The position numbers were made by a program, and so were the translations under genes. Shown piece by piece: positions 32,906 through 63,926 of a stretch of DNA of 64,000 bases (position 1 is its first letter; each line of letters starts with the position of its first letter). Source of the stretch: Trypanosoma brucei (Eukaryota); the NCBI GenBank assembly GCA_000002445.1, contig CM000208.1, positions 3,232,001 to 3,296,000 on the forward strand, read 5' to 3'. The notes beneath the pieces were generated by a model, which saw only the letters and a list, made by a program, of their open reading frames with translations, searched no databases and had not been told where the DNA came from.

Positions 32906-35125
32906 CTACTTGGGAGGGTTTAGAAGCTTCATCTCTTCGTACCGTGACCCCGGTTTGCGAGCGCCCCTGAAGGTTCCGTACGCACTCTCTGGACTCATCG
33001 GATGATGATCCTCCTCCCCTATGTCAACATATGCCGCGCCATCAGGATGATCCTTAGCCTCTATGGGTGACATCTCAAGGGACGTAACATTCAAAATCGT
33101 AGCGCCGTCATGTGACCTTCCTGCGGAGAGGCCGGCATTAAATGCACGGTTGTAATGGTTGTTAAAACTTTGATACCTATCGTACAACTCCCTCGGAATA
33201 CGGTAGAGGCGCGTGGGGTGCAACACCACTGCATCATAATCTGGGATGTAGCGCTGCAGTTGCAGTGCACCTTCCCCCAACCAGTCGAAAGAACGCTGCT
33301 TCAACAGGGAGTTGCAGGAGGCGACAAGTACCTCTACCCTACCACCCAGTATTAGGGTGAACACAGATGATTCAACACCATTACGATATAACACGGCGCG
33401 CTCCTCTGTGGCGCGGGAAATGAGATCATTTGTGGAATTCGGTGCGTCTCGTGTGCCTTCAGTGTTGCCCGCGATCACCGTGCCACTCAGAGGAGGGTAA
33501 GAATTAGAGGGAGCTTCACCGCTTGGTACGGGTGCAGGGAACGTGTACTGATCGATTCCGCACTCGTCAAGCAACATCTTTACATACCCTGGGTGCCAGA
33601 GGTAGAAAGGTGGAACCGAGCGGGTCAAGTAGTACGCAACAGCCCAAATCTGCGCCTCTGTCAGGGTGCCATCACTGCCGGGCTGTACGTAGTAGGAATA
33701 GAAGTTCACTCTTGGAACTTGTGCAGGCTCTGAAAGCGGGGGTGGAACGCCGCAGAGATCCAGCAGCACCTCTCTTTCCCCCAAAACACTGTTGGTGTGC
33801 GCTGGGAAGTCATAACTATCATACTCGTCGTATATTTCTCCCTTTATAAGGGTTTCTAGTACATCTTCTAGTGTCACAATACCAATGATTTCTGTGTCAC
33901 GTAAAGCGGTACACTGATTCAAAGTGACAGACATGCTCATACTAATATTCTCATCTGTCAGTAAACTAACGGTGTCTGTACCCGAGACAAACAGCATCTG
34001 CGTCTCCGCGTGCTGAAACATCCTCAGGACTGTTGGCAGGGGAGTGTCCTTGTGCACTGCAAGGGCTGTCCGTGCACTCCCGTTGACGAACTCACCGATT
34101 GTCAACGGCGTTGCACCTTCAATCAGCGGCGGCATCGACAGCAGGTCCTTCACAATCAGAACATCACGGTACCCTCCCAATGTCTCCTGCACGGGAATGC
34201 GAGACCGTCCGCTCCGCCACAGAGACTCAATCAAACACGGCGTGAGAACATCATCCACCCTCACGGTGGTCACATCTTCCATAGGCTTCATAATGTCGCA
34301 GACTTTCCTCTCCTGGAAGTCCATCGCGGCAATGAGCAGCTTCAGTTCAGACGTTGCGAGGCCACTGCGCTCACCGTGCGCTTCACAATGTAGAATCATT
34401 AGCTTCCGCAGTTCATTGCGATCGTATATTTGACCAGCGTCGTGCGGCACCAAGCGGTCCAACAGTAGACCCAGTGGCATTGCTACGGGATAAACAAGGA
34501 CCCTTGCCACACGCACCACTGAGCACCCCGCCGCTGCAATTGCCAATGAATACTTGGACTTGCATATGGACATAGGGACGATCTCGGTAAAGATAAGAAT
34601 AAGTAAGGTGCTTACAGCAAACAATGCGATGCCTGGTGCACCGCCATTATCCTTGCACGCTCCACTGATATAGCTGAACTTACAGAGCAGCTCTGTGAGG
34701 GCGCCTAGCTGTTGCACCACGATAACATTCATGAGCATATTCGAGATGATAAGCGTGCAGAGAGTCACATGGCCCTGGCGGCGCAGAGGAAGTATCCGTG
34801 AGGCGTGCGTCCTGTCCGGCTCTCGACCACTACTTGCAATTATGCTCAACGTCAGCGTGTCCATGCACAAAATACCGATGGTTAGCCCGGCAAATATGGC
34901 GGAGAACGAGAGACACACCAATATTAAGATTACGTGGTCCAAGATGGTGTAAATATGCCTTTCCGTTTTGCGAATAGAGGCACCGCCAGAAGAGCTTGAC
35001 TCAGGCTCTTCTATGCCGTGCTCCCTAGCAGCTGCGACAAGGGGCAGCTTGACCACATGAAGCAGCAGTAGAAACAGAACCCCAGAAAGGATAGCGCGCG
35101 AACATCGCCTTACGCCAAATACCAT
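32906..35125 (-). CDS. CNNM/ACDP-family putative Mg2+ transporter: DUF21 (CorC/CNNM) transmembrane domain plus CBS pair
   Basis: 739-aa ORF with a true ATG and a signal-like N-terminus. The DUF21 region ILVCLSFSAIFAGLTIGILCMDTLTL...VTLCTLIISNMLMNVIVV is followed by CBS-type repeats (DIMKPMEDVTTVRVDD...; GIVTLEDVLETLIKGEIYDE) and a long C-terminal cytosolic region, as in CNNM proteins. Confidence 0.8.
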   Translation of the reverse strand: MVFGVRRCSRAILSGVLFLLLLHVVKLPLVAAAREHGIEEPESSSSGGASIRKTERHIYTILDHVILILVCLSFSAIFAGLTIGILCMDTLTLSIIASSGREPDRTHASRILPLRRQGHVTLCTLIISNMLMNVIVVQQLGALTELLCKFSYISGACKDNGGAPGIALFAVSTLLILIFTEIVPMSICKSKYSLAIAAAGCSVVRVARVLVYPVAMPLGLLLDRLVPHDAGQIYDRNELRKLMILHCEAHGERSGLATSELKLLIAAMDFQERKVCDIMKPMEDVTTVRVDDVLTPCLIESLWRSGRSRIPVQETLGGYRDVLIVKDLLSMPPLIEGATPLTIGEFVNGSARTALAVHKDTPLPTVLRMFQHAETQMLFVSGTDTVSLLTDENISMSMSVTLNQCTALRDTEIIGIVTLEDVLETLIKGEIYDEYDSYDFPAHTNSVLGEREVLLDLCGVPPPLSEPAQVPRVNFYSYYVQPGSDGTLTEAQIWAVAYYLTRSVPPFYLWHPGYVKMLLDECGIDQYTFPAPVPSGEAPSNSYPPLSGTVIAGNTEGTRDAPNSTNDLISRATEERAVLYRNGVESSVFTLILGGRVEVLVASCNSLLKQRSFDWLGEGALQLQRYIPDYDAVVLHPTRLYRIPRELYDRYQSFNNHYNRAFNAGLSAGRSHDGATILNVTSLEMSPIEAKDHPDGAAYVDIGEEDHHPMSPESAYGTFRGARKPGSRYEEMKLLNPPK

Positions 35126-35947
35126 TAAAATTTTTAATAAGTTAACTTTCCTTCGCTTCCTTTCGCTCCACTCTCAGTTACCAATCCCGATCATCGGTTG
35201 AAGAAAGAACCTTGGTATATAAAGCATGGAGACACGATACAACTGCGTGCGGTAGTGGTCCCATCTACACGTCAGAGAGACGTTGAACGCAACAAGGGAG
35301 AAGTTATTACGGAACAACAAGAAATATTTACGGAGTCAAAGCCACCACTGGCGCCGGCCACCTACCAGTCCTCGTGGTGGTACCCGCTGAGGAAATCTCA
35401 GCGCCGCAACCCTCATATGCTCACATGAAGAGAAGCACATTTATATATAACATAAGTAAAAATATATGTGCTCTTCCCTTGCTTCTTCATTTTGCGCTCT
35501 TGTTACGGCGTTGTTCTTTATGTTATCATTTTTTTTTTTGTAAAACAGCACCTGCTTATCTACACCGCGAAAATAAATATGGAAGGGGGGACGGGCCGTC
35601 ACCCGCCAATCAGTCATGCGGTGCCAGCACTGATGCCGTAACAGGTCGTAATTACCACCACCACTACCAGACGCTTTCAACTCCTTTCCTTCCCTCTCCC
35701 AAGAACCTTTGCGCAAATACGATTAGATGCATGTCCTCATTTGCTTACGTTTCTTCATTCAATCCTTTCGCCCCCTCCCCTCTTGCCCTCTAATTAATTT
35801 TCTTCTTCCTCATTTCTCACTTTTTAGTTACTTAGATATCACTGCATTTTCTCCAAGTGGATTAGGATGGACGCCACACACACAGTGAAATGATAAACAA
35901 GAATAGAAAAAACAAAAATCTGTAGAAGAAACAATTCACGGTAAAAT

Positions 35948-40915: not shown

Positions 40916-42631
40916 TCTACGAAATAGACGTGAGGAGAAGAACGCAAACTTTCAATAACTGCAAGAATGGACACACCAGCGTGTTAAGCAACCAGTGGAT
41001 GCAGCAGAACCCTGGTACACCATGCACAATAACCCCCCGAGTAAAAGCAACATTAATGGCTAAACCGAAACCCAGTGGCTGTCATTCACCACCGCTCAAC
41101 GCAAAATGCACCCTTCCCGACTTACGGTAGACGGCAAATAAAGTATCAGCAACATCATATGAATTAGAACAGTGTCCCAGGTAGATATTGCACCATGCCT
41201 CGTCCGTGTGGCAACTTAAAGTGCGACACGCAGCGGGCATATTAACAACCGAGCATTAACATAACCATAGCACATGTGTACGCAAGTACGAGCAAGCACA
41301 ACAAACACCTGGTGGCACAATAAGGAATATCACAGGGAAGAAACTAGAAGAAAGGAGGATAGACGGTGTGTACACAAGGCACCGACATACTCGCCTCGCC
41401 TCTTGGAAAGCCACCACCCACAACGCACCACCAAAAAGGCATGCCGTGGCTACGGGCCTCCTCAGAAATAGAAGGTAACACTGAAGAAACAGCAATGGGG
41501 GAAATTACTGCAGGTACGTGTCAGTCAAGTACAGCACTCTCGCTGAAAGCGTTGGTATCAATCAGCACTAAGTTGTCACTCAGTCGCGCACTACAACTTC
41601 TGTCCTCATACACAGCCATGCAGCAGAACATCTCCACCACATGTATCACCCCACAATGCATGCAAAGCACGGTGTGGGGCGGTTGTATGGGCGTCGATAC
41701 AGCAACAGTGAATAAAGATGCAGTGTAAACACACATAGCAGGAAGGAGTTAGGGACGGTAAATGCCGGTACAATCAACACCGCTGCTCAACATTTGTACA
41801 CATTCAAGAGTCCTCATTGGATGTGTCGGTCCGCCTGTCGTTAGACAGTTTCTCATCGTCGCAGCGGTGTCGTGCCCATAACATGTCACATTTCGCATAG
41901 TCCAATGATCCAAGAGTCAAAAGAGAAGGGAAAAAAGAGTAACGAGGGGAAGAAGGGAGGAATCAGATAGATTGGTAAACGCAAAGTTGGTTTCTCGCTC
42001 ATGATGGGTCGTCAGTGCGCACTACAACTGCAGTCACATCACGCAGAGTAAACGCTATTGGAATATCTCCGCCTCCTGAAATCGCCCCACAACGATTTCT
42101 GCACATGTGAGGCGTTAGACAGAGACGTTGTACTTGATATCAGTGTAAAATAAGGACCATGTTGGCACGGAAAAGACAAGACAATGCAGTTGTCATGACA
42201 TCTTTTCACTGATGCATCCCCTATTCGCATAACTGTTACGTAAACATAATCACACATTACTCATAACACAAGTTGCTAGGACAAGCGACTTCACTACACG
42301 GTGTTGCTACGGAAACATACCTCACTGTGCTAACATACACTGCATCAGAATGCGATTACATGCATCTCAGCGTCACCTGGAAATCTGGGATACAATCGCA
42401 TCATACACTTGTCTAGTTTCGTAAGCAATGAGTTCTTGGTCACATACCACAGGTAATGTACTCTCTCAAATGAAAATATTGTGATGAGCACCGCTCGAGT
42501 ATTCTGCAATGATTCCGTTTGTCGACTCACAATGTGACGATGGAAAAGAATGAGGATATCAAGTTATTGCATTTTAGGTTTTCATGTCAACTAGAAAATC
42601 AGAGAGCCGACACCACATCCCCTCAGTATCT

Positions 42632-44515: not shown

Positions 44516-45760
44516 CAGTCGAGGTAGACACGGAAATGCACTCCGCAGAGCCTCCGCCAAACTATGGAAGGAAATAAATGTCATTACAGTGCAGAGGCCC
44601 CTTCCCCACCCTACTTGTGACAAGAACAGAACACATGCATCACACATGCAAAAGATAAAAATATATACGTCGACACAAAGTACCATATATTAACAGCGCA
44701 CATAATCATGAACTCATGAACGCAGCGATATTCATATCCTGCAAGAACAAAGAATATACCCAATGAAAAGGTATCAATCATCTTTTGACTGGAACCAGGC
44801 TACTTTGATCCAACCCTATCAAACTGGTATGGGTAAAAACGTACCAGTTATTATGACACCTAGATAACACCATGTATTTGAGTGTTGATTATTTAGCCGT
44901 TCACACCAATCACCAATGGCAGAAGTCCGTAGAGTAACTGGCAAAACCAAATCAGTTGTGTTCACGCGTAGCATATACACCATACCGTGCAACTAATAAC
45001 GGTACCGATATGCCATTCACACTCACACATCCCACAGATTCTCCACGCTATCTGTCACCGTGCTTGGCACTTTCACAAGTTCCATCTGCTTCAGCTATGC
45101 TACTTCAGTACCACTAATTGTACAAACATATTCCGTGGCGTATGCCCACACAGACACACACACGTGATAATCCTACTGAAAAGAGGCAATGTGAAGAAGT
45201 AAAAACACCGATGAAAGCAATACAAAAACAGCGAGTGGGGAAGGCGACCTACCCGAAAAGAAACATTAAAACGCACATTAACTTTTTTCTAATGGAAAAC
45301 AATGGGTATCATATCAATGGACGAAAATAATTAAAAAAAGAATAACAATGCAGGGCAGTGAGCAGAACCATACAATGAGTCAAATGGGAATGCAGCAGCA
45401 GCCAACCACGGTTGCAGCAAACATGTCGCCTCGATGTCTCAATCATAACCCACGTATGGTAGTCTGTGTTACCCTTGGGTTCATACGCCCTCCTAAAGAA
45501 ACAAGTTGTAAAATGTTATACTACGCCGGAAACTATTTATTATTATATCCACTCTCTCCACAGAACCAATCACTCTCTCGTTATTAACACACTAAATTAC
45601 GGAATAAAAGTTAGACATTAGTGTCACAGCGCTCTTCAGATGTTAAGGGGTTTCGATATTAGCGAATAGAATGAGGAGTAAAAAGAGAGTCAAACATATC
45701 AAATCATAAATAACAAATAACCAAATATGAGAAGAAGGGGAAGAATAAAGCATCATGTAC

Positions 45761-48313: not shown

Positions 48314-49447
48314 TCAACATTTATTTTCAACCTCTTCATCAACATTGTTCTCCTCCGTCTCCACATTCGAGCAATCAATGGCGTCACCATCCTCGTTGTT
48401 GTTGCTTTCGCCGCCGTTGCCATTACTGGCGGCTTCTTCACCGCTTATGTTGGCACCTTCATTGTTACAATTGACTTCCATGGGACAGGAGACAGAATCC
48501 GACTCGGTTTTCATGGGCAACGTCGCGGATTTCTCGGGTTCCGTGTCTTCCCCCCCTTCGATCTTTCGCCGGGAGTGGCGATGGCCCTTTTCACCCTCCT
48601 CGTCGGACGAACTTTCTTCGCTTCCCGAAATGGAGCCCGTACGCCCCTCCTTTAGATTGCGCTCCGCCAGTTTACGTTCGTACTTTTCGGCGTCACGGCG
48701 GACGACGTCAAGAAACTGCTTTCGTTGTACCTCGCGCAGTTTCAGTGTCTCCTCAGGTGGTTGAGGGTTTGCCGGCGGGCGGGTGTACGGCGCTGGACGA
48801 CCGAGTGGCCCGCCAGCATAAACACCGCGCGGTGCACCCCACGGCTGCTGCGGGGGCGGGGGGACGTACGCCATTGGGGCTGTTGGTGGCATGACATGCA
48901 TACCTGGAGCCGCAGCTGGTGCCTGAGGAAGGAGACTCGCCATAAGCACCTGTTGCTGCTCTGCAGTGAGGTTGTTTACATCTATGGCGCCCTGCTGCAG
49001 GAGCTGAAGGAGAAGAGTGGCACCCTGTTGCTGCTGCTGTTGAACCATACCAGGCAAGAAACTCGCAGGAACAGACACGGCAGGCACTTGAGGTTGTGAA
49101 GGAACTTGTGGATGCTGACCCGCGCTGCTCGCAGTATTGCTGGCGGCGGGCGCAGGGGTCGGGTTGTTGTTGTACCCTTCAGGCCTGCCAACGTTACCCT
49201 TGCTAATACCAACCTTTATTTTCCTTCCAGCTAGTGTGAATCCGTTGTACTTCATCGCTCGCGCACGATCATCCTCGGTGGCAAAATCAATAAAACCGTA
49301 GCGATACGGATCCTCGTCACGACCATTAAGGGAACAATCAACAATAGTGCCACATTGGGAAAAGACCTGACGGAGAACCTCCAACGTCACACTTCTGTCA
49401 ATATTACCAATGTAACAGCCAAACCGCTGCTGTCCAACATGCGCCAT
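48314..49447 (-). CDS. RNA-binding protein with an N-terminal RRM, Q/P-rich low-complexity centre and acidic C-terminal tail
   Basis: 377-aa ORF with a true ATG. RNP-2 is CYIGNI and RNP-1 is RYGFIDFA within the first 85 residues. A poly-Q/Pro-rich region and an Asp/Glu/Asn-rich tail follow. I have an unverified recollection that a T. brucei RBP (RBP29) lies between AHA1 and the L7-like gene on chr10; treat this as a hypothesis. Confidence 0.75.
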   Translation of the reverse strand: MAHVGQQRFGCYIGNIDRSVTLEVLRQVFSQCGTIVDCSLNGRDEDPYRYGFIDFATEDDRARAMKYNGFTLAGRKIKVGISKGNVGRPEGYNNNPTPAPAASNTASSAGQHPQVPSQPQVPAVSVPASFLPGMVQQQQQQGATLLLQLLQQGAIDVNNLTAEQQQVLMASLLPQAPAAAPGMHVMPPTAPMAYVPPPPQQPWGAPRGVYAGGPLGRPAPYTRPPANPQPPEETLKLREVQRKQFLDVVRRDAEKYERKLAERNLKEGRTGSISGSEESSSDEEGEKGHRHSRRKIEGGEDTEPEKSATLPMKTESDSVSCPMEVNCNNEGANISGEEAASNGNGGESNNNEDGDAIDCSNVETEENNVDEEVENKC

Positions 49448-50534
49448 CCGTTCGGCGCTTGCCTTTGTGTGTACTTAGAACTTAGGCAGACACCAAGAAA
49501 GGAAGGTCTCGGTTGAGTGCAACAATTCAAAATAGGGACCTCTGTTTCCCCGCAGTCGTTCCCACCCCTCAAAAAAAAAAAAATACCACCACCACCACCA
49601 ACAATAACAACAAACACCCCACCCTTACTTTTTGTATTTGCCTTCTTAGTTATTTTCTGATTTGTCACTTTCCTCCGTTAATCTTTTTTATCCTAATGCC
49701 CTCTGCGATTACCTTTTCGTCTTGCTTTGATGGTTTAGCTATCTATTTTCTAGGCTCCGCTCCGCCTTTAGTCGTTACCCTGCGCCTTATTATTAGTTAT
49801 GTCTATTATCACCACAGCTGTTACTGTTATTGTCCGATTTCGTAGATAAACCTAGTACCAGACTTCAGAAATTACCTTGTGGAAGCTAGCTCCTAGCATA
49901 AGGGTTGAAAGCAAAATAAATTTTAAAAAAGCAAACAGAGAAGTGTGGGTAGTAAGAAGGGAAATGATATAACAGTGAGGTGCAAAGAATAAAAAGGAAA
50001 AGGAGAACGGTAGCACTATCGATACTCCCCATCACTTTTCCTCCTTCTCCCTTTATAGTCCCAAGTATTGTACTTTTGTGGGGGAAAGGCAGGCCAAGGA
50101 GCTGAAGTGGGGGTGGGGGGAAAGGTGATGATGAAATGCTGATGTCAACAACAGTATATATAAACTGATGTGCAATTTTTTTTATAAATTATTTCGCTGC
50201 CGTACAAGAAATGCACATATTACACGATTATATTACAAAACACCGGTGTCGATGAGGCGACTTTCACCAATCTCAGCACTCCTACTCTCCCTCTTTCCTT
50301 TGCAATCCCTTTATTTTCCTCCCTTCTTTGAAATGCTGTTGAATATTAAACACTTTAAAACTTCGGTGACACTGGTGGTGAACGCTTTTCTCCTCTCCTC
50401 TCTCCTCCACATTCACACAACCCCACACGCGTACACCGTTATGTAATCGGAGAAAAGAAAGTACCGAACATGATATAAGTCCATCTGCAGCTTCCAGATC
50501 CGTAGACCAGCCATACGAGGGCAGGCGTGTACAT

Positions 50535-57213: not shown

Positions 57214-57555
57214 TCACTCCCGAAGCGAGAAGTGAGTAGGAGAAACGTTATACTTATAAATGTAAACGTCTGGTCGGTGGTGCTTACGATGGGCTTCAAT
57301 TTCTTCCTCAAAGTACGGCTCCTGCGCAAAGCTACTGGGAAGGGGATCGCCAAAGTTTGACCGCGCGAGTTTTGCGAAGGCACCCTGTTTTTTCTCTGTC
57401 GTGTGAGGAGCCCAACTTACGCGCCTTGCGTGACTGATGGCCTCCTTACTAAAAAAATCTTCCGTGCGCACGGAAAGACACCGTGTGGCTGCTGTCAGCG
57501 ATGAACCGTAGCAACTCACCGCCACAGATCGCAGACGCACGCCTCGCAGGACCAT
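57214..57555 (-). CDS. Small hypothetical protein (113 aa), possible mitochondrial targeting peptide
   Basis: True ATG (plus 57553-57555 = cat). The N-terminus is MVLRGVRLRSVAVSCYGSSLTAATRCLSV. It is short, unconserved by eye, and could be spurious. Confidence 0.3.
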   Translation of the reverse strand: MVLRGVRLRSVAVSCYGSSLTAATRCLSVRTEDFFSKEAISHARRVSWAPHTTEKKQGAFAKLARSNFGDPLPSSFAQEPYFEEEIEAHRKHHRPDVYIYKYNVSPTHFSLRE

Positions 57556-58190
57556 CTACAACTTTCCCTCGTTCCATTTGTTTGACATTGTGTCATTTTA
57601 GAAAAAAATAATAAAAATGAATAAGCAAACAGCTGCAACTATGCCATAAACTGACGGCACATATCACACAACCACAGTGGAGACGAAAGAAGTAAACAAA
57701 TGGAAGTGGCACAACACCACCACCAAAAAAAAAATAAGCAACTGTTAGGAGCGGGTGGAGGAGATCGATGGCAGCATCAAATGTTACACGCACAAAAAAG
57801 ACAAACACGCGGCACCCAACCCCCGGCCCTCACGTGGTGACAACTGAACTTTCTGTACAACTCAGAAATAAAGGATTAATTACGGAACCGCCTCGTGGCA
57901 ATCCACACATCCGTCATTCATTAAAATATGCAACAAACGGTGTAGTCATCAGAACCACGCACCCGAAGGTGCTCAACTGCTCATTTAGTTGCGCAGATTG
58001 TGAAAGGACTTCGGAACCGTCTGCTCAAACTATTTTCCCATCCTTCATCGCCGTTTAAGGGGTCGCTTTGCCTCAGAATGTCGTTGCATAACAAAGAGAA
58101 GGAAAGAAAAGGAAAAATAAGATACTTTGGGGTATCTCTCTATTCTCAAAAGTAGCTATGAGTGCGTTATAGTAAGCACAAACAGAAATT

Positions 58191-58212
58191 ATATATATAT
58201 ATATATATATAT
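58191..58212. repeat. (AT)11 microsatellite
   Basis: Direct read in the long gene-free interval downstream of GSK3. Confidence 0.95.
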
Positions 58213-59141
58213 GTACTCCCATGTTCACGCACCTGAAAGTGAGACAATGACACGGTTGGGAGAAGAGAGGGGAAGACAACAACAAAATATTAATCATGGG
58301 GCCCAGCAAAAAAAAAAAAAACAGCTTTACAGAGGGAAATACAGAAGAACAAGTAGGGAAACAGCAGTAAAGCACCAACACACATACACATCACAAGAGG
58401 TAAAACGAATAAATACAAAAACAAGTACCATCACCACGCACAATCAAATACGGCAAATCGTTTAAGCACAGAAAAAGAGGCGACGCACTTTTCTTTCTTT
58501 ATTTTCTTAATTTTTTTCTTGTTTATTGTTGTTGTTGTTGTCTTTATTCTCACCCCCGCCCTTTCTTTCTTTCCCTCACATTTTCGGAGTCTCCTGTATT
58601 GAAAATGAGAGAAGGGAGGTAAGGGTAAAACCCACCAAAAGGGTGGAGACATGCCCACCCGCTTAAACCCACAAAAGGTGTAAAACTCAAAGGAGTTGAA
58701 CAAGACACATACACATGAAGCATAGCCGTGGTAAATGCGACAGGGAAGAAACAGAGGCACATATCGAATAGAATTTTCTTTTTTTTTTTTTCTCGCTCAG
58801 TGATGGCGTAACCTCACCCCCCTCTGTGTTTTATATAAAAGCAAGAGAGTTGAAAGGGTACACATTCAGGGAAAGGAAGGGAAGAGAAAGGGAGGAGAAG
58901 GGGAACCCACTACCACGAATCCCCTTGAAATATATTCTTTCCAAAATAGACACAATCTAAAGGTGCCGCTGGAATTGCATACATGCTTCCATGTTCGTTC
59001 GTCTGCGGGAAAAAAGTCCAAAAGTAACACTCTTCTTTATATTCCCCACCCTCATTTACCACTACTTTCCACCATCCTTTGTTGTTTCACATAATCAAAA
59101 GGCACTGATAGAAAAAAAAGTGAATATATCCGACACGTTGG

Positions 59142-59146
<5 letters not shown>

Positions 59147-59177
<31 letters not shown>
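59147..59177. repeat. (AT)n microsatellite, about 15 units
   Basis: Direct read. Confidence 0.95.
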
Positions 59178-59183
<6 letters not shown>

Positions 59184-59666
59184 TTATTTATATGTATGCA
59201 TGTGCAAGTTTAACAGGAGTACCTTTGTGAGCGCGCAAGGAGTTTCCTTCAACCATCACCACGGCACGCTTCATTGCCCTAAACGACAGCGTCATGCGTT
59301 TCACCCAAGTACCGCCAGCCAAAATCCCACCTACAGCAATTATACTTTTATATTCATATCCTTCTTAATCTTTTTTAGCTCCTCTCTTCCCCACACCACA
59401 TAAGAGTCACATTGTACACTGTTAGTTGCTTCGTTCACCTCACACCGCACCTCACCTCACCTCGCCTTTCCTTCTCCCCCTTTCCTTCCTTTCCCTTTTC
59501 TCGTCTCACATTGCAAGTTTACAGTACCCGATGAAACAAAACGGTCACAAGAGAAGGAAGCGAAGAAGAATAATAACAAAAAAAGAAAGGAGGAAAAGGC
59601 AACGGCAAGGAGCTCATCCATTCAACAATAGTAATAATGATAATATTAAAAATAAGAGGCGGGGTC

Positions 59667-61153: not shown

Positions 61154-62212
61154 TTACTTCTTCAGCAGATACTCCCGCTGCGCCTCCGTCATGGCCTCCA
61201 CTTCATCAGGAGTGAACTGATACAAATGCGCTGGGAGGGGATTACCACTGGGAAGCTTCGTTGTTGGCTCCCGCAGCTCATTGAAAAAGGGATGACAGAG
61301 TGCATCCAGAGGTGTAATGCGCTGATCAGGTACGTACTTAAATATTTTTCCGCACAAATCGTACACCTCGGCAGGAAGTGGCTGCTTGAAGACGTTCTCC
61401 CACGGTGTTGCTTTGGCATTTGCATTAATCTCTGTGCTACTCCCATTCAATTTGTGCAATTCCTCCTTCGTTGGTTTTCCAAGTATTTTAACAATCTCAC
61501 GCAACTGCCCAGAAGTGTTCTCACCGCAGAATATCGGTTCACCAAGAAGCATTTCGGCAAATATACAGCCAACCGACCATATATCCACGGCAGTGGTGTA
61601 GAACTGATTGCCAAATATGAGCTCCGGAGCGCGATAGTAACGCGAGCAAATGTAGGCCACATTGGGCTCATCTGCCGCAAGCCTCTTGGCACTTCCAAAG
61701 TCACACAGTTTCAATTCCCCCGTTTGCTCGTCAACGAGAACATTATGTGGCTTGATGTCACGGTGGCAAATGTTGATCACGGGGATGTGAAGACAGGCGA
61801 TACTCCGAAGCAATTGGAACATGAACACCTTCACCAGTATTAGTGGAGGATTTGTCATGCGACGGTAATAGTTCCGGCACGTGCGGTGCAGCGTTTCGGG
61901 GACAAATTCCATCACCACATTGAGATAAACATCGTTGCGCCGTCCTTCCCCACCGACTGTGTAGAAGTAATTCTTCAACATCACAATGTTAGGATGGCGA
62001 AGTCGTGCTAAATGCTGCATAATTTGCAACTCTCGGTTTTTGAAGCGCGGATCTTGTATCACCTTCTTAATTGCTACTAGTGACCCCGTGCTTTTGTCGC
62101 GTGCAAGTTGAACGGTGCCAAACGTTCCCTGTCCTGCCACTCGCTCCACGGTGTACTTTTCCATCTCCTTGTAACTGCGGTCGTCCGCAGCATCGGTAAG
62201 GTTGAGCGACAT
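61154..62212 (-). CDS. GSK3: Glycogen synthase kinase 3 (CMGC kinase; matches my recollection of T. brucei GSK3-short, 352 aa)
   Basis: True ATG (plus 62210-62212 = cat). Full protein kinase domain: glycine loop GQGTFGTV, VAIKK, HRDIKPHN, DFG, the GSK3-specific SYICSRYYRAPE activation segment with the conserved Tyr, and the C-terminal GSK3 motif. Confidence 0.95.
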   Translation of the reverse strand: MSLNLTDAADDRSYKEMEKYTVERVAGQGTFGTVQLARDKSTGSLVAIKKVIQDPRFKNRELQIMQHLARLRHPNIVMLKNYFYTVGGEGRRNDVYLNVVMEFVPETLHRTCRNYYRRMTNPPLILVKVFMFQLLRSIACLHIPVINICHRDIKPHNVLVDEQTGELKLCDFGSAKRLAADEPNVAYICSRYYRAPELIFGNQFYTTAVDIWSVGCIFAEMLLGEPIFCGENTSGQLREIVKILGKPTKEELHKLNGSSTEINANAKATPWENVFKQPLPAEVYDLCGKIFKYVPDQRITPLDALCHPFFNELREPTTKLPSGNPLPAHLYQFTPDEVEAMTEAQREYLLKK

Positions 62213-62340
62213 GTAGTGAATAGTGCGATTTTGAAAACAACAACAACACCAAAAAAATAATTTGATAAAGGAATAAATAAATAGAATAAATAGTGATAAT
62301 CAATCAGTGAGAGAGGAAGCAAAAGCCGCCGATGTCAAAC
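62213..62340 (-). promoter_or_regulatory. Approximately 128-nt pyrimidine-rich, AG-free tract directly abutting the GSK3 start codon (presumed trans-splicing polypyrimidine signal)
   Basis: Plus strand 62213-62339 contains no CT dinucleotide, so the coding strand has no AG. The coding strand is about 65% pyrimidine (U-rich) and ends ...TTCAAAATCGCACTATTCACTAC-ATG. Confidence 0.5.
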
Positions 62341-63926
62341 TGATATTATGCCAATGACCCAACGTTAGTGGGCGTGACCGACGACCTACTTGCCCCTTTC
62401 TTTCTTTCTTTTTGTGTTGTTTTATTTTAGTTTGGTGTTATTGTTGCTGTTTTTCGACCAGTCAAGGGAACGCCTAACTTATCTACACCCCGTTCGTTGA
62501 ATACCTTTCCCTGCTATTTTCTTTTTCAGTTTTTTTTTTTTTAAATCCCCCTTGGAGGTGTTTGTTCACTCCTTAACTCTTCTCTCTAACCGCTGCTACT
62601 GTTGTTTCCTTCTGTGCAAATATTTGCTTACCTTCTTTTTTTCCTGTTATTTTGCTTTTGATTCAATTCTCGTGTGGTTGTTCGCTTATGTTAAGTTGTA
62701 TATTAATTTCTTTGTTCCCCTTGTTTTGATCTGGTTCTTTATTTTCTTCTTCCCTGTACTGTCCCCTAAAGATTATTCGAAAAACAGCCGGTGGATCCAC
62801 ACGGCGGACGTAAAAGAATGAAGGTGAGGAAAGTGGTTTTAATGCCGCTACATAGATAGTTTAAAGCACATGCACAGACATACGTGTGGTGGTATCAACC
62901 AGGGTGATGAATTAGAGCGGAAAAACAATAGCAAACAAGCAAGCAAGATTGAAAAAGAAGAAAAAAAGGGAGGGAGTGAAAAATAGTTTCGCAACAAGAG
63001 CAATTAAATACAGAACAAAAGGTAGTGGCTAACCAGAAAAGAAAAGGAAATACCATAATCAACCGGTGAAGGAGAAAGGCACCAGAAAGATAAAGACAAA
63101 GAAAGAACAAGGGGGAAGGAAGAGGAAAAGCGTTGGTTGGAACTATCCGCATGCTGAGAATAACGTTCACTACACCGTTGCGACGCAGTTTACCACTGGT
63201 TTAGGGAAAGCCAGGCGACCAGCACATAACCGTCTCTGGCACAACAAAAAAGACAGTGACATAAACACGAAAAACACGGAAGACGCCACACTATAACCTC
63301 ACTCTTCACTCAACAACACCACCACCAACAAAAAAAAAAAAACAAACCAAATTAAGTCGGAAAACATTAAAAAGTAAAAAAGAAAAAAGAAAAAAACAGT
63401 TATGGCACTTTAGCCCTCCCCTTCCCGCCTCCCCCATCAAAATTACCTTTTAAATCCTTCTTGTGTACCTTCCCATTAATTCCTAATCTTTACCCCTTTA
63501 TCGTTCTTCATCTTACTTTCTGTATTATTCTTCGACTTCTAAGAGAAATAAATTTTCTCTTATATTCACTCACTCCTCTAATCGTTATTCCATTCCCTTT
63601 ATTTTCTGTTGTTTCTTATCGCCCGTTACTCACGCGGAGTGGCTTTCATATACATGCATGCGGTCACAAAACCAAAAAAAAACAAGAGGGAAGAAATAAC
63701 ACACGGCTACGTTTGAAATATTTTTATTGTTGGCATCATCATTCCCCATGGTTACATATTGACAACAACGCAAAACAAAAGGGACCACGGAAGCAAAACA
63801 AAGAAGCAACAATTTTATTTGACAATATCTATAGCACCGCCCCCCCCTCCTCTTGCTCTTCCTTCCTTCCTTTATTTCTTCTTTTCACTCTTTTACATTC
63901 TTCTGATTCGCTTTTGTTACTAACGT

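What the first reader, a model, noticed from the sequence alone, without database searches (positions are those of the whole stretch)
62161..62340. GSK3: no AG between the polypyrimidine tract and the annotated ATG; first acceptor-competent AG lies inside the CDS
The 128 nt immediately upstream of the GSK3 start on the coding strand contain no AG dinucleotide (no CT on the plus strand in 62213-62339). They form one continuous pyrimidine-rich tract. Further upstream the coding strand becomes purine-rich, so no alternative polypyrimidine tract is evident. Under the usual kinetoplastid rule (SL added at the first AG downstream of the poly-Y tract), the first candidate acceptor is the AG in codons 12-13 (CGC-AGT, plus 62174-62177). 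The first AUG after it is Met17 (MEKYTVERVAGQGTFG...), 7 residues before the kinase glycine loop. Either translation of GSK3 normally begins at Met17, or an atypical far-upstream acceptor is used, or both isoforms exist.
Basis: partly seen in the sequence, partly recalled or inferred. Interest (0 to 1): 0.5.

Follow-up and report, generated by a model that had tools for sequence, protein, structure and literature searches.

The report
GSK3 mRNA uses a distal splice site
The AG-free pyrimidine stretch before the Trypanosoma brucei GSK3 start codon is real, but published mapping shows the spliced leader is added 553 nt upstream at an ordinary acceptor and the protein starts at the annotated Met1, so this is an already-explained, ordinary gene model.

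Summary
The window is T. brucei TREU927 chromosome 10 and the gene at 61154-62212(-) is GSK3-short (Tb927.10.13780). The core observation holds. No AG occurs on the coding strand in the 127 nt before the ATG, and the next AG lies in codon 13. GSK3 is the only one of 25 genes in the window with more than 20 nt between the last upstream AG and its ATG.

The claim that no other polypyrimidine tract exists upstream is wrong. Beyond a ~425-nt purine-rich stretch lies a ~370-nt pyrimidine-rich zone with a canonical acceptor AG at 62767/62766.

Published SL RNA-seq (Jensen 2014) puts 13,124 SL reads, 82% of the gene's total, exactly there, giving a 553-nt 5'UTR. TriTrypDB v5 has the same coordinate. 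Three SL-mapping studies kept the annotated start.

A phospho-Ser2 peptide was found in bloodstream forms (Nett 2009). Residues 1-16 are conserved across kinetoplastids with third-position substitution. The 553-nt leader contains no AUG.

Met1 is used, and the pyrimidine tract is simply part of a long 5'UTR. A minor internal splice site giving a Met17 isoform is not excluded, because 18% of SL reads were not located, but nothing supports it.

The parts
61154..62212 (-). CDS of GSK3-short (Tb927.10.13780), 352 aa, annotated Met1 at 62212-62210
   Evidence: ORF. It is 100% identical to T. brucei/T. equiperdum GSK3 (P0001). E=6e-162 to the Leishmania GSK3 structure 3e3p over residues 1-352. The CDS start used by Jensen 2014 equals the TriTrypDB start.
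62213..62765 (-). Mapped 5'UTR, 553 nt. The first ~425 nt are purine-rich and the last 127 nt pyrimidine-rich. It contains no AUG.
   Evidence: Jensen 2014 Additional file 6 gives 5'UTR end chr10:3366257, length 553, 13,124 SL reads (81.95%), identical to TriTrypDB v5. The coordinate conversion was validated on 25 genes. There are 0 ATG against 5-10 expected, P(0)=0.006.
62766..62767 (-). Major trans-splice acceptor AG (context ...aatctttAG|gggacag; -3 = T)
   Evidence: The SL site converts to first mRNA nucleotide 62765. Logan contig L007 begins exactly at 62766.
62799..62836 (-). Polypyrimidine tract serving the major acceptor (38 nt, 31-nt spacer to the AG)
   Evidence: Identified with the Kolev-2010-style PPT definition. 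It lies within the published range: PPT starts 0-200 nt upstream, median 43.
62850..63143 (-). Extended pyrimidine-rich intergenic zone upstream of the acceptor. It is the probable region of polyadenylation of the upstream gene Tb927.10.13790 (inferred).
   Evidence: AG-free runs 63143-63029 and 63029-62848, 70-88% pyrimidine. The median distance from poly(A) site to splice site is 142 nt in Kolev 2010; applying it here is inference.
62213..62339 (-). The flagged AG-free, pyrimidine-rich tract (127 nt). It lies inside the 5'UTR. Its best PPT is at 62299-62264.
   Evidence: It is present only in T. brucei-group genomes and is absent in T. vivax, T. cruzi, T. theileri and Leishmania. No significant RNA structure was found.
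62175..62176 (-). First AG downstream of the tract, in codon 13 (AGT, Ser13). It is a candidate cryptic or minor acceptor with no evidence of use.
   Evidence: The PPT ends 87 nt upstream and -3 = C. Ser13 is encoded by AGY in all five species compared.
62162..62164 (-). Met17 codon (context aaggagATGg), invariant in 22 kinetoplastid orthologues

Best explanation
The gene is T. brucei GSK3-short. Its pre-mRNA is trans-spliced mainly at a canonical distal acceptor, AG 62767/62766. This is the first AG after an 80-nt AG-free stretch and lies 31 nt downstream of a 38-nt polypyrimidine tract. The tract sits at the 3' edge of a ~370-nt pyrimidine-rich intergenic zone.

The result is an unusually long (553 nt) but AUG-free 5'UTR. 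Scanning ribosomes therefore reach the annotated Met1 as the first AUG, and the full 352-aa protein is made.

The AG-free pyrimidine-rich 127 nt before the ATG are simply the 3' part of this leader. The tract is specific to the T. brucei lineage. It resembles a splice signal on paper but is not the main one.

Shown: the splice site position and its dominance, use of the N-terminus in vivo, and coding constraint on codons 2-16.

Inferred: why the distal site wins (it is transcribed first, and its PPT-AG spacing of 31 nt is better than 87 nt), and that the proximal tract has no essential role.
For: 1. SL RNA-seq from pooled procyclic and slender bloodstream forms. For Tb927.10.13780 the 5'UTR end is chr10:3366257, length 553 nt, with 13,124 SL reads (81.95% of the gene's SL reads). 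TriTrypDB v5 has the identical coordinate (Jensen 2014, PMC4210626, Additional file 6).
2. Coordinate conversion. With window = chr10 minus 3,303,492, every one of the 25 published SL sites for window genes falls directly after an AG, and the UTR length lands on an ATG. For GSK3 this gives AG 62767/62766.
3. Start codon. It is unchanged in Jensen 2014. The discrepancy versus the Cross/Siegel 2010 data set is 0, and there is no Ochsenreiter/Nilsson comment (Additional file 7). The gene is absent from Kolev 2010 Table S1 (532 ORFs with the splice site inside the ORF) and Table S3, both of which are stored complete.
4. Protein evidence. Phospho-Ser2 was detected on Tb10.61.3140 in bloodstream forms, with manual annotation (Nett 2009, PMC2716717, Table II and discussion).
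5. N-terminal conservation. Residues 1-16 are conserved in 22 kinetoplastid orthologues: M1, D10 and S13 in at least 90%, E16 and M17 invariant.
6. Codon-level pattern. Differences in codons 2-16 concentrate at third positions (for example 1/1/13 versus T. theileri). Nucleotide identity is 0.58-0.73 in codons 2-16 but 0.18-0.29 in the 45 nt upstream of the ATG.
7. uAUG absence. The 553-nt leader has no ATG, and the 641-nt ATG-free run 62853-62212 is the longest on this strand in the window.
8. Assembled contigs. Six Logan contigs carrying the gene all extend 330-555 nt upstream of the ATG. None continues collinearly past 62766, and L007 starts exactly there.
9. Translation. The gene is well translated, with TE 1.8-2.9 (file 4).
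Against: - 18% of SL reads map to sites I could not retrieve, so a minor internal site cannot be excluded.
- By simple criteria the internal AG looks competent: a 36-nt T-rich PPT, C at -3, and 163 nt AG-free upstream.
- The pSer2 peptide was observed only once.
- No SL sequence was found in the Logan contigs. Several of them are chimeric at the purine-rich region, so they are only supportive.
- The sample type of those runs is unknown.
Confidence: 0.93

Rival explanations
1. Met17 is the normal start. The proximal pyrimidine tract is the real splice signal, the SL is added at the AG in codon 13, and the annotated first 16 codons are 5'UTR or intergenic.
For: There is no AG for 127 nt before the ATG and a T-rich PPT lies upstream of the codon-13 AG. 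Met17 is invariant and sits in a purine -3 / G +4 context. 532 T. brucei genes did have such misannotated starts (Kolev 2010).
Against: 82% of SL reads lie 553 nt upstream. The gene is not in Kolev Table S1. The start is unchanged in three studies. A pSer2 peptide was detected. Codons 2-16 are under coding constraint, with a sharp loss of conservation upstream of Met1. No contig on record encodes a Met17-start product.
Confidence: 0.01
2. Two isoforms exist. A minority of transcripts are trans-spliced at the codon-13 AG and translated from Met17. This gives a GSK3 that lacks the N-terminal 16 residues, including the phosphorylatable Ser2.
For: 18% of the gene's SL reads are not at the major site. 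The internal AG has a PPT within the published 0-200 nt range and no G at -3. Met17 is invariant. Alternative trans-splicing that changes N-termini is documented in T. brucei (Nilsson 2010, PMC2916883).
Against: No study consulted flags an internal site: the Ochsenreiter comment is 'none', and the gene is absent from Kolev S1 and S3. Minor sites usually cluster near the major one, and several AGs lie within 20 nt downstream of 62766. The PPT-AG spacer of 87 nt is longer than at most mapped sites in this window. The tract is absent from other trypanosomes while Met17 is conserved in all of them, so Met17 conservation cannot be explained by this mechanism. The P0001 cluster has a single member, and no Met17 product is on record.
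Confidence: 0.08
3. The proximal pyrimidine tract is a functional cis-element of the 5'UTR rather than a splice signal. It could be a binding site for pyrimidine-tract RNA-binding proteins that tune translation, or an unstructured landing zone before the AUG.
For: The absence of AG is mildly non-random given composition (P=0.03). GSK3 is the only one of 25 genes with this arrangement. GSK3 is among the transcripts whose translation efficiency and protein rise on DRBD18 knockdown (PMC10653379).
Against: The tract is not conserved outside the T. brucei group. No structure signal was found, with z-scores of -0.16 and +0.16. The DRBD18 effect has not been mapped to this element. Pyrimidine-rich low-complexity sequence is abundant in T. 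brucei non-coding DNA.
Confidence: 0.15
4. Leaky scanning on the full-length mRNA gives some initiation at Met17, because Met1 has a weak context (T at -3, T at +4).
For: The Met1 context is cacTacATGt and the Met17 context is aagGagATGg.
Against: An out-of-frame ATG at +19 opens a 38-codon ORF that would capture leaky ribosomes before Met17. No initiation-site profiling is available. Context rules in trypanosomes are poorly defined (own knowledge).
Confidence: 0.05

Closest known systems
Canonical T. brucei trans-splice acceptor sites (polypyrimidine tract + AG; Kolev 2010, Siegel 2010)
   Same: An AG lies at the junction, with T at -3 (no G). A 38-nt PPT starts 69 nt upstream, within the published 0-200 nt range and 7-79 nt length range. 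One dominant site carries 82% of reads.
   Different: The resulting 5'UTR of 553 nt is much longer than typical. The median is 89-130 nt and 80% are under 248 nt.
T. brucei genes with misannotated start codons (splice site inside the annotated ORF; 532 genes in Kolev 2010 Table S1, 573 CDS boundaries revised in Jensen 2014)
   Same: A pyrimidine tract is followed by a first AG inside the annotated ORF and a downstream in-frame Met. This is the sequence signature that led to those re-annotations.
   Different: Here the major splice site is upstream of the ATG. The gene is absent from those lists, the N-terminal extension is conserved, and it is seen as a phosphopeptide.
Alternative trans-splicing producing N-terminal protein isoforms (Nilsson 2010; own knowledge: dual targeting of some aminoacyl-tRNA synthetases)
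   Same: There are two potential acceptors, one upstream of the first AUG and one downstream of it, plus an in-frame downstream AUG.
   Different: No internal site is documented for GSK3, and no targeting signal or other known function is attached to residues 1-16 apart from pSer2.
Mammalian GSK3-beta N-terminal inhibitory phosphorylation (Ser9)
   Same: There is a phosphorylated serine in the short N-terminal extension before the kinase domain. Nett 2009 proposed pSer2 as a comparable inhibitory site.
   Different: There is no sequence homology between the N-terminal segments: the PDB human GSK3-beta alignments start at residue 18. The function of pSer2 is untested.

Membership tests
Canonical kinetoplastid SL trans-splice acceptor (for AG 62767/62766) | SL-containing reads join at this nucleotide | tested here: met
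   13,124 SL reads (82%) at chr10:3366257, which is window 62765 (Jensen 2014). This is taken from published data, not re-mapped by me.
Canonical kinetoplastid SL trans-splice acceptor (for AG 62767/62766) | AG dinucleotide immediately upstream of the junction, with no G at -3 | tested here: met
   The context is ctttAG|ggg and -3 = T.
Canonical kinetoplastid SL trans-splice acceptor (for AG 62767/62766) | Polypyrimidine tract within ~200 nt upstream | tested here: met
   A 38-nt PPT lies at 62836-62799, inside a ~370-nt zone that is 66-88% pyrimidine.
Misannotated start codon (true start downstream of annotated ATG) | Major splice site maps inside the annotated ORF | tested here: not met
   The major site is 553 nt upstream. 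The gene is absent from Kolev Table S1, and the start is unchanged in the Jensen, Cross and Ochsenreiter comparisons.
Misannotated start codon (true start downstream of annotated ATG) | Annotated N-terminal extension not conserved and not detected as peptide | tested here: not met
   Residues 1-16 are conserved with a third-position substitution pattern. A pSer2 peptide was detected.
Alternative trans-splicing giving an N-terminally truncated isoform | A reproducible minor SL site between Met1 and the downstream in-frame Met | not testable with these tools
   The per-site tables were truncated or not held (Kolev S4 and S12; the Nilsson and Siegel supplements). No contig on record encodes a Met17-start product.
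Alternative trans-splicing giving an N-terminally truncated isoform | In-frame AUG is the first AUG downstream of the internal acceptor | tested here: met
   The AG is at +36/+37 and the next ATG is at +48, which is Met17 in frame.
GSK3 (CMGC protein kinase) family | Full-length similarity to characterised GSK3 kinases, including the kinase domain and activation-loop Tyr | tested here: met
   Pfam PF00069 is present. The protein is 100% identical to annotated T. brucei-group GSK3. E=6e-162 to Leishmania GSK3 structures and 1e-107 to human GSK3-beta. pTyr187 lies in NVAYICS.

The most novel reading that the evidence does not exclude
The T. brucei-specific proximal pyrimidine tract acts as a weak second splice signal. 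A minority of GSK3 mRNAs then receive the SL at the codon-13 AG and are translated from the invariant Met17. The product would be a GSK3 isoform lacking the phosphorylatable Ser2, and so possibly escaping N-terminal regulation, perhaps in a stage-specific way.
Probability: 0.06. Interest if true: 0.45.

Novelty: already known. Interest (0 to 1): 0.1.

Why it matters
GSK3-short is an essential kinase and a validated drug target in T. brucei, so the correct N-terminus matters for recombinant constructs, structures and regulation studies. The evidence says the annotated 352-aa model is right.

The case is also a calibration point for sequence-only scans. In this window only 5 of 33 long AG-free pyrimidine-rich runs end at a major splice site. 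The 'first AG after a polypyrimidine tract' rule therefore cannot be applied to the tract nearest the ATG without looking further upstream.

The one mildly interesting residue is a 553-nt leader completely devoid of AUG. Similarly long AUG-free zones lie upstream of the T. vivax and T. cruzi orthologues, which fits selection to keep a long GSK3 leader scannable.

Tried and rejected
- Searched the six Logan contigs and three genome loci for the T. brucei SL 3' end (10-17 nt). None was found. The contigs are collinear only up to 62766 or are chimeric inside the purine-rich leader, so I used them only as supportive evidence.
- Looked up a Met17-start 336-aa product. None is on record.
- Looked up the T. 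congolense orthologue P0002 to test conservation of the tract in the nearest outgroup. It is not on record.
- Supplements. The Nilsson 2010 files held do not contain the gene. No Siegel 2010 supplements are held. Kolev 2010 Table S4 (all splice sites) and S12 are truncated. The supplements of PMC6907760 (2019 cell-cycle phosphoproteomics paper) contain neither the gene ID nor the N-terminal peptide in the held text. Parsons 2015 and Urbaniak 2013 are not held.
- RNA structure in the leader or around the tract. The z-scores were -0.16 and +0.16, so a structured element is rejected.
- Rfam scan of the window. Nothing was found near GSK3, only three snoRNAs at 41.4-42.1 kb.
- Considered the tract as a relic of an ancestral proximal acceptor. 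T. vivax, T. cruzi, T. theileri and Leishmania have purine-rich, AG-rich sequence there instead, so it looks like a T. brucei-lineage gain. This is not resolvable without T. congolense.

Full report
**What is there**

The ORF 61154-62212 on the minus strand encodes a 352-aa protein. It is 100% identical to the GSK3 annotated in T. brucei-group genomes and carries the Pkinase domain. It aligns end to end with the solved Leishmania GSK3 structures 3e3p and 7s6u (E about 1e-160), and from residue 18 with human GSK3-beta. Literature searches identify it as Tb927.10.13780, old ID Tb10.61.3140. All long ORFs in the window lie on the minus strand. An Rfam scan finds the chromosome-10 snoRNAs TB10Cs4H2-H4. 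Published chromosome coordinates convert to window coordinates by subtracting 3,303,492. With that offset, all 25 published splice sites for genes in the window land directly after an AG, and their UTR lengths land on an ATG. A 1-nt shift applies for the four lowest genes. The window is therefore T. brucei TREU927 chromosome 10, about 3.303-3.367 Mb.

**Checking the observation**

On the coding strand there is no AG between A62341/G62340 and A62176/G62175. The 127 nt before the ATG are 68.5% pyrimidine. The next AG is in codon 13 (AGT). The next ATG after it is in-frame Met17.

The arrangement is unusual locally. The other 24 genes in the window have 0-20 nt between the last upstream AG and their ATG, against 127 nt for GSK3. 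Given the tract's composition, 2.9 AGs are expected and P(0)=0.03.

Long AG-free pyrimidine-rich runs are nevertheless common. There are 33 runs of at least 100 nt on this strand. Only 5 end at a mapped major splice site, 9 end inside coding sequences, and the rest lie in intergenic or UTR sequence.

Small corrections apply:
- The tract is 127 nt, not 128.
- The upstream CAG is at 62342-62340.
- The glycine loop begins 10 residues after Met17.

Beyond the purine-rich stretch (62345-62770, 18-42% pyrimidine) the strand is 66-88% pyrimidine from 62776 to about 63150. That zone includes AG-free runs of 181 and 114 nt.

**Where the spliced leader is added**

Jensen et al. 2014 (PMC4210626) made SL RNA-seq libraries from procyclic and slender bloodstream forms. 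Their Additional file 6 lists, for Tb927.10.13780:
- 5'UTR end at chr10:3366257;
- 5'UTR length 553 nt;
- 13,124 SL reads at that end, which is 81.95% of the gene's SL reads;
- the same coordinate in TriTrypDB v5.

In window coordinates the first mRNA nucleotide is 62765 and the acceptor is AG 62767/62766 (context aatctttAG|gggacag). The site is canonical. It has T at -3 and an 80-nt AG-free stretch upstream. A 38-nt polypyrimidine tract at 62836-62799 leaves a 31-nt spacer to the AG. These values lie well inside the ranges reported by Kolev et al. 2010, where the PPT starts 0-200 nt upstream (median 43), is 7-79 nt long, and G is excluded at -3.

There is independent support from assemblies. 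Six Logan contigs that encode the protein extend 330-555 nt upstream of the ATG. None continues collinearly beyond 62766, and one (L007) starts exactly there. None contains SL sequence and several are chimeric, so I treat this as supportive only.

**Which start codon is used**

- Jensen's Additional file 7 compares start codons across studies. For this gene the TriTrypDB start equals their start (3365704). The discrepancy versus the Cross-lab data set (Siegel 2010) is 0, and there is no Ochsenreiter (Nilsson 2010) comment. Their pipeline did shorten CDSs when the major SL site was internal; 573 boundaries were changed.
- The gene is absent from Kolev 2010 Table S1 (532 ORFs with the splice site inside the ORF) and Table S3 (alternative processing). 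Both tables are held complete.
- Nett et al. 2009 (PMC2716717) report manually annotated phospho-Ser2 and phospho-Tyr187 on Tb10.61.3140 from bloodstream forms, and discuss pSer2 as a possible analogue of human Ser9. This is a peptide from residues 1-16.
- Residues 1-16 are conserved in 22 kinetoplastid orthologues, with consensus MSLNxAEAADERSxKEM.
- At the nucleotide level, differences from T. vivax, T. cruzi, T. theileri and L. martiniquensis in codons 2-16 concentrate at third positions (for example 1/1/13). Identity falls from 0.58-0.73 in codons 2-16 to 0.18-0.29 in the 45 nt upstream of the ATG.
- The 553-nt leader contains no ATG, against 5-10 expected (P(0)=0.006 under a first-order Markov model and <5e-5 by simple shuffling). 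The 641-nt ATG-free run ending at Met1 is the longest on this strand in the whole window. Met1 is therefore the first AUG of the major mRNA. This fits the known selection against upstream AUGs in T. brucei (Siegel 2010).
- The gene is efficiently translated, with TE 1.8-2.9.

**What the proximal pyrimidine tract is**

It is the 3' quarter of the 5'UTR. It occurs in the four T. brucei-group genomes examined, with only a T7/T8 length difference and one G/A change. T. vivax, T. cruzi, T. theileri and L. martiniquensis have purine-rich, AG-rich sequence immediately before the ATG instead. It shows no RNA-structure signal.

By a Kolev-style definition, the codon-13 AG has a 36-nt T-rich PPT (62299-62264) that ends 87 nt upstream, with C at -3. 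It is plausible on paper, but the spacer is longer than at most mapped sites in the window.

I could not retrieve where the remaining 18% of SL reads map. Minor sites normally cluster around the major site, and several AGs lie within 20 nt downstream of 62766. A look-up for a Met17-start product found nothing. Because Met17 is invariant also in species that lack the tract, its conservation cannot be attributed to an alternative-splicing isoform. I put the chance of a functional Met17 isoform at about 6%.

A regulatory role for the tract in translation is conceivable, since GSK3 protein and translation efficiency rise on DRBD18 knockdown. That role is untested and unsupported by conservation.

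**Comparison with known cases and verdict**

The locus works like, and qualifies as, an ordinary T. brucei gene with a canonical distal trans-splice acceptor. Only the long leader stands out: 553 nt against a median of about 90-130 nt, with 80% under 248 nt.

It superficially resembles the class of misannotated start codons but fails both defining tests, namely an internal major splice site and an unconserved, undetected N-terminus. Membership in the class of alternatively trans-spliced N-terminal isoforms could not be tested with the data available.

The main value is as a caution for sequence-only prediction of splice acceptors.

Noticed in passing
window 62213-62853 (-); L010 and L011 upstream of the GSK3 ATG: The ATG-free run ending at GSK3 Met1 (641 nt) is the longest on the coding strand in the 64-kb window. 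The corresponding ATG-free zones in T. vivax (791 nt, P=2e-4) and T. cruzi (344 nt, P=0.007) are also the longest in their loci. This suggests a conserved long uAUG-free GSK3 leader.
   Followed up: partly
window 57214-59504 (-): Jensen 2014 assigns Tb927.10.13770 (113 aa) a 1,949-nt 5'UTR from a splice site at 59504, with only 36% of reads. TriTrypDB has a 6-nt UTR. The long leader contains 39 ATGs, so the distal site more likely belongs to an unannotated transcript downstream of the GSK3 3'UTR.
   Followed up: no
window 41401-41463, 41630-41695, 42063-42128 (-): Three H/ACA-like snoRNAs (Rfam TB10Cs4H4, H3, H2; 79-88 bits) lie in the intergenic region, which also holds long AG-free pyrimidine-rich runs.
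   Followed up: no
window 62162-62164 (-), alignment A1: Glu16-Met17 are invariant in all 22 kinetoplastid GSK3-short orthologues, including species without the proximal pyrimidine tract. The reason for the invariant Met is unknown and is presumably structural.
   Followed up: partly
window 35125-35919, 44584-45175, 49447-49892 (-): Among the long leaders in the window, those with a dominant splice site (RBP29, 445 nt, 89% of reads; GSK3, 553 nt, 82%) have no uATG. Those with a weak 'major' site (13660, 794 nt, 23%; 13690, 591 nt, 36%) have 15-16 uATGs.
   Followed up: no
L004 1-1685, L005 1-360, L008 1-20, L009 1-28: The Logan contigs (ERR79291xx) join unrelated sequence to the GSK3 leader at different points in the purine-rich low-complexity stretch (62655-62739). 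In L004 the joined sequence includes a RING-finger gene. These are apparent assembly chimeras.
   Followed up: no
window below ~15,300: The published Tb927 v5 coordinates need an extra +1 shift for the four lowest genes (Tb927.10.13540-13570). This implies a 1-nt indel between the window sequence and the assembly version used in 2014.
   Followed up: no
window 62251-62257 (-); L001-L003: The T run in the proximal tract is T7 in the window but T8 in T. b. gambiense, T. equiperdum and GCA_003543875. A G/A polymorphism (cggcgg versus cgacgg) in some of those genomes does not create an AG.
   Followed up: no
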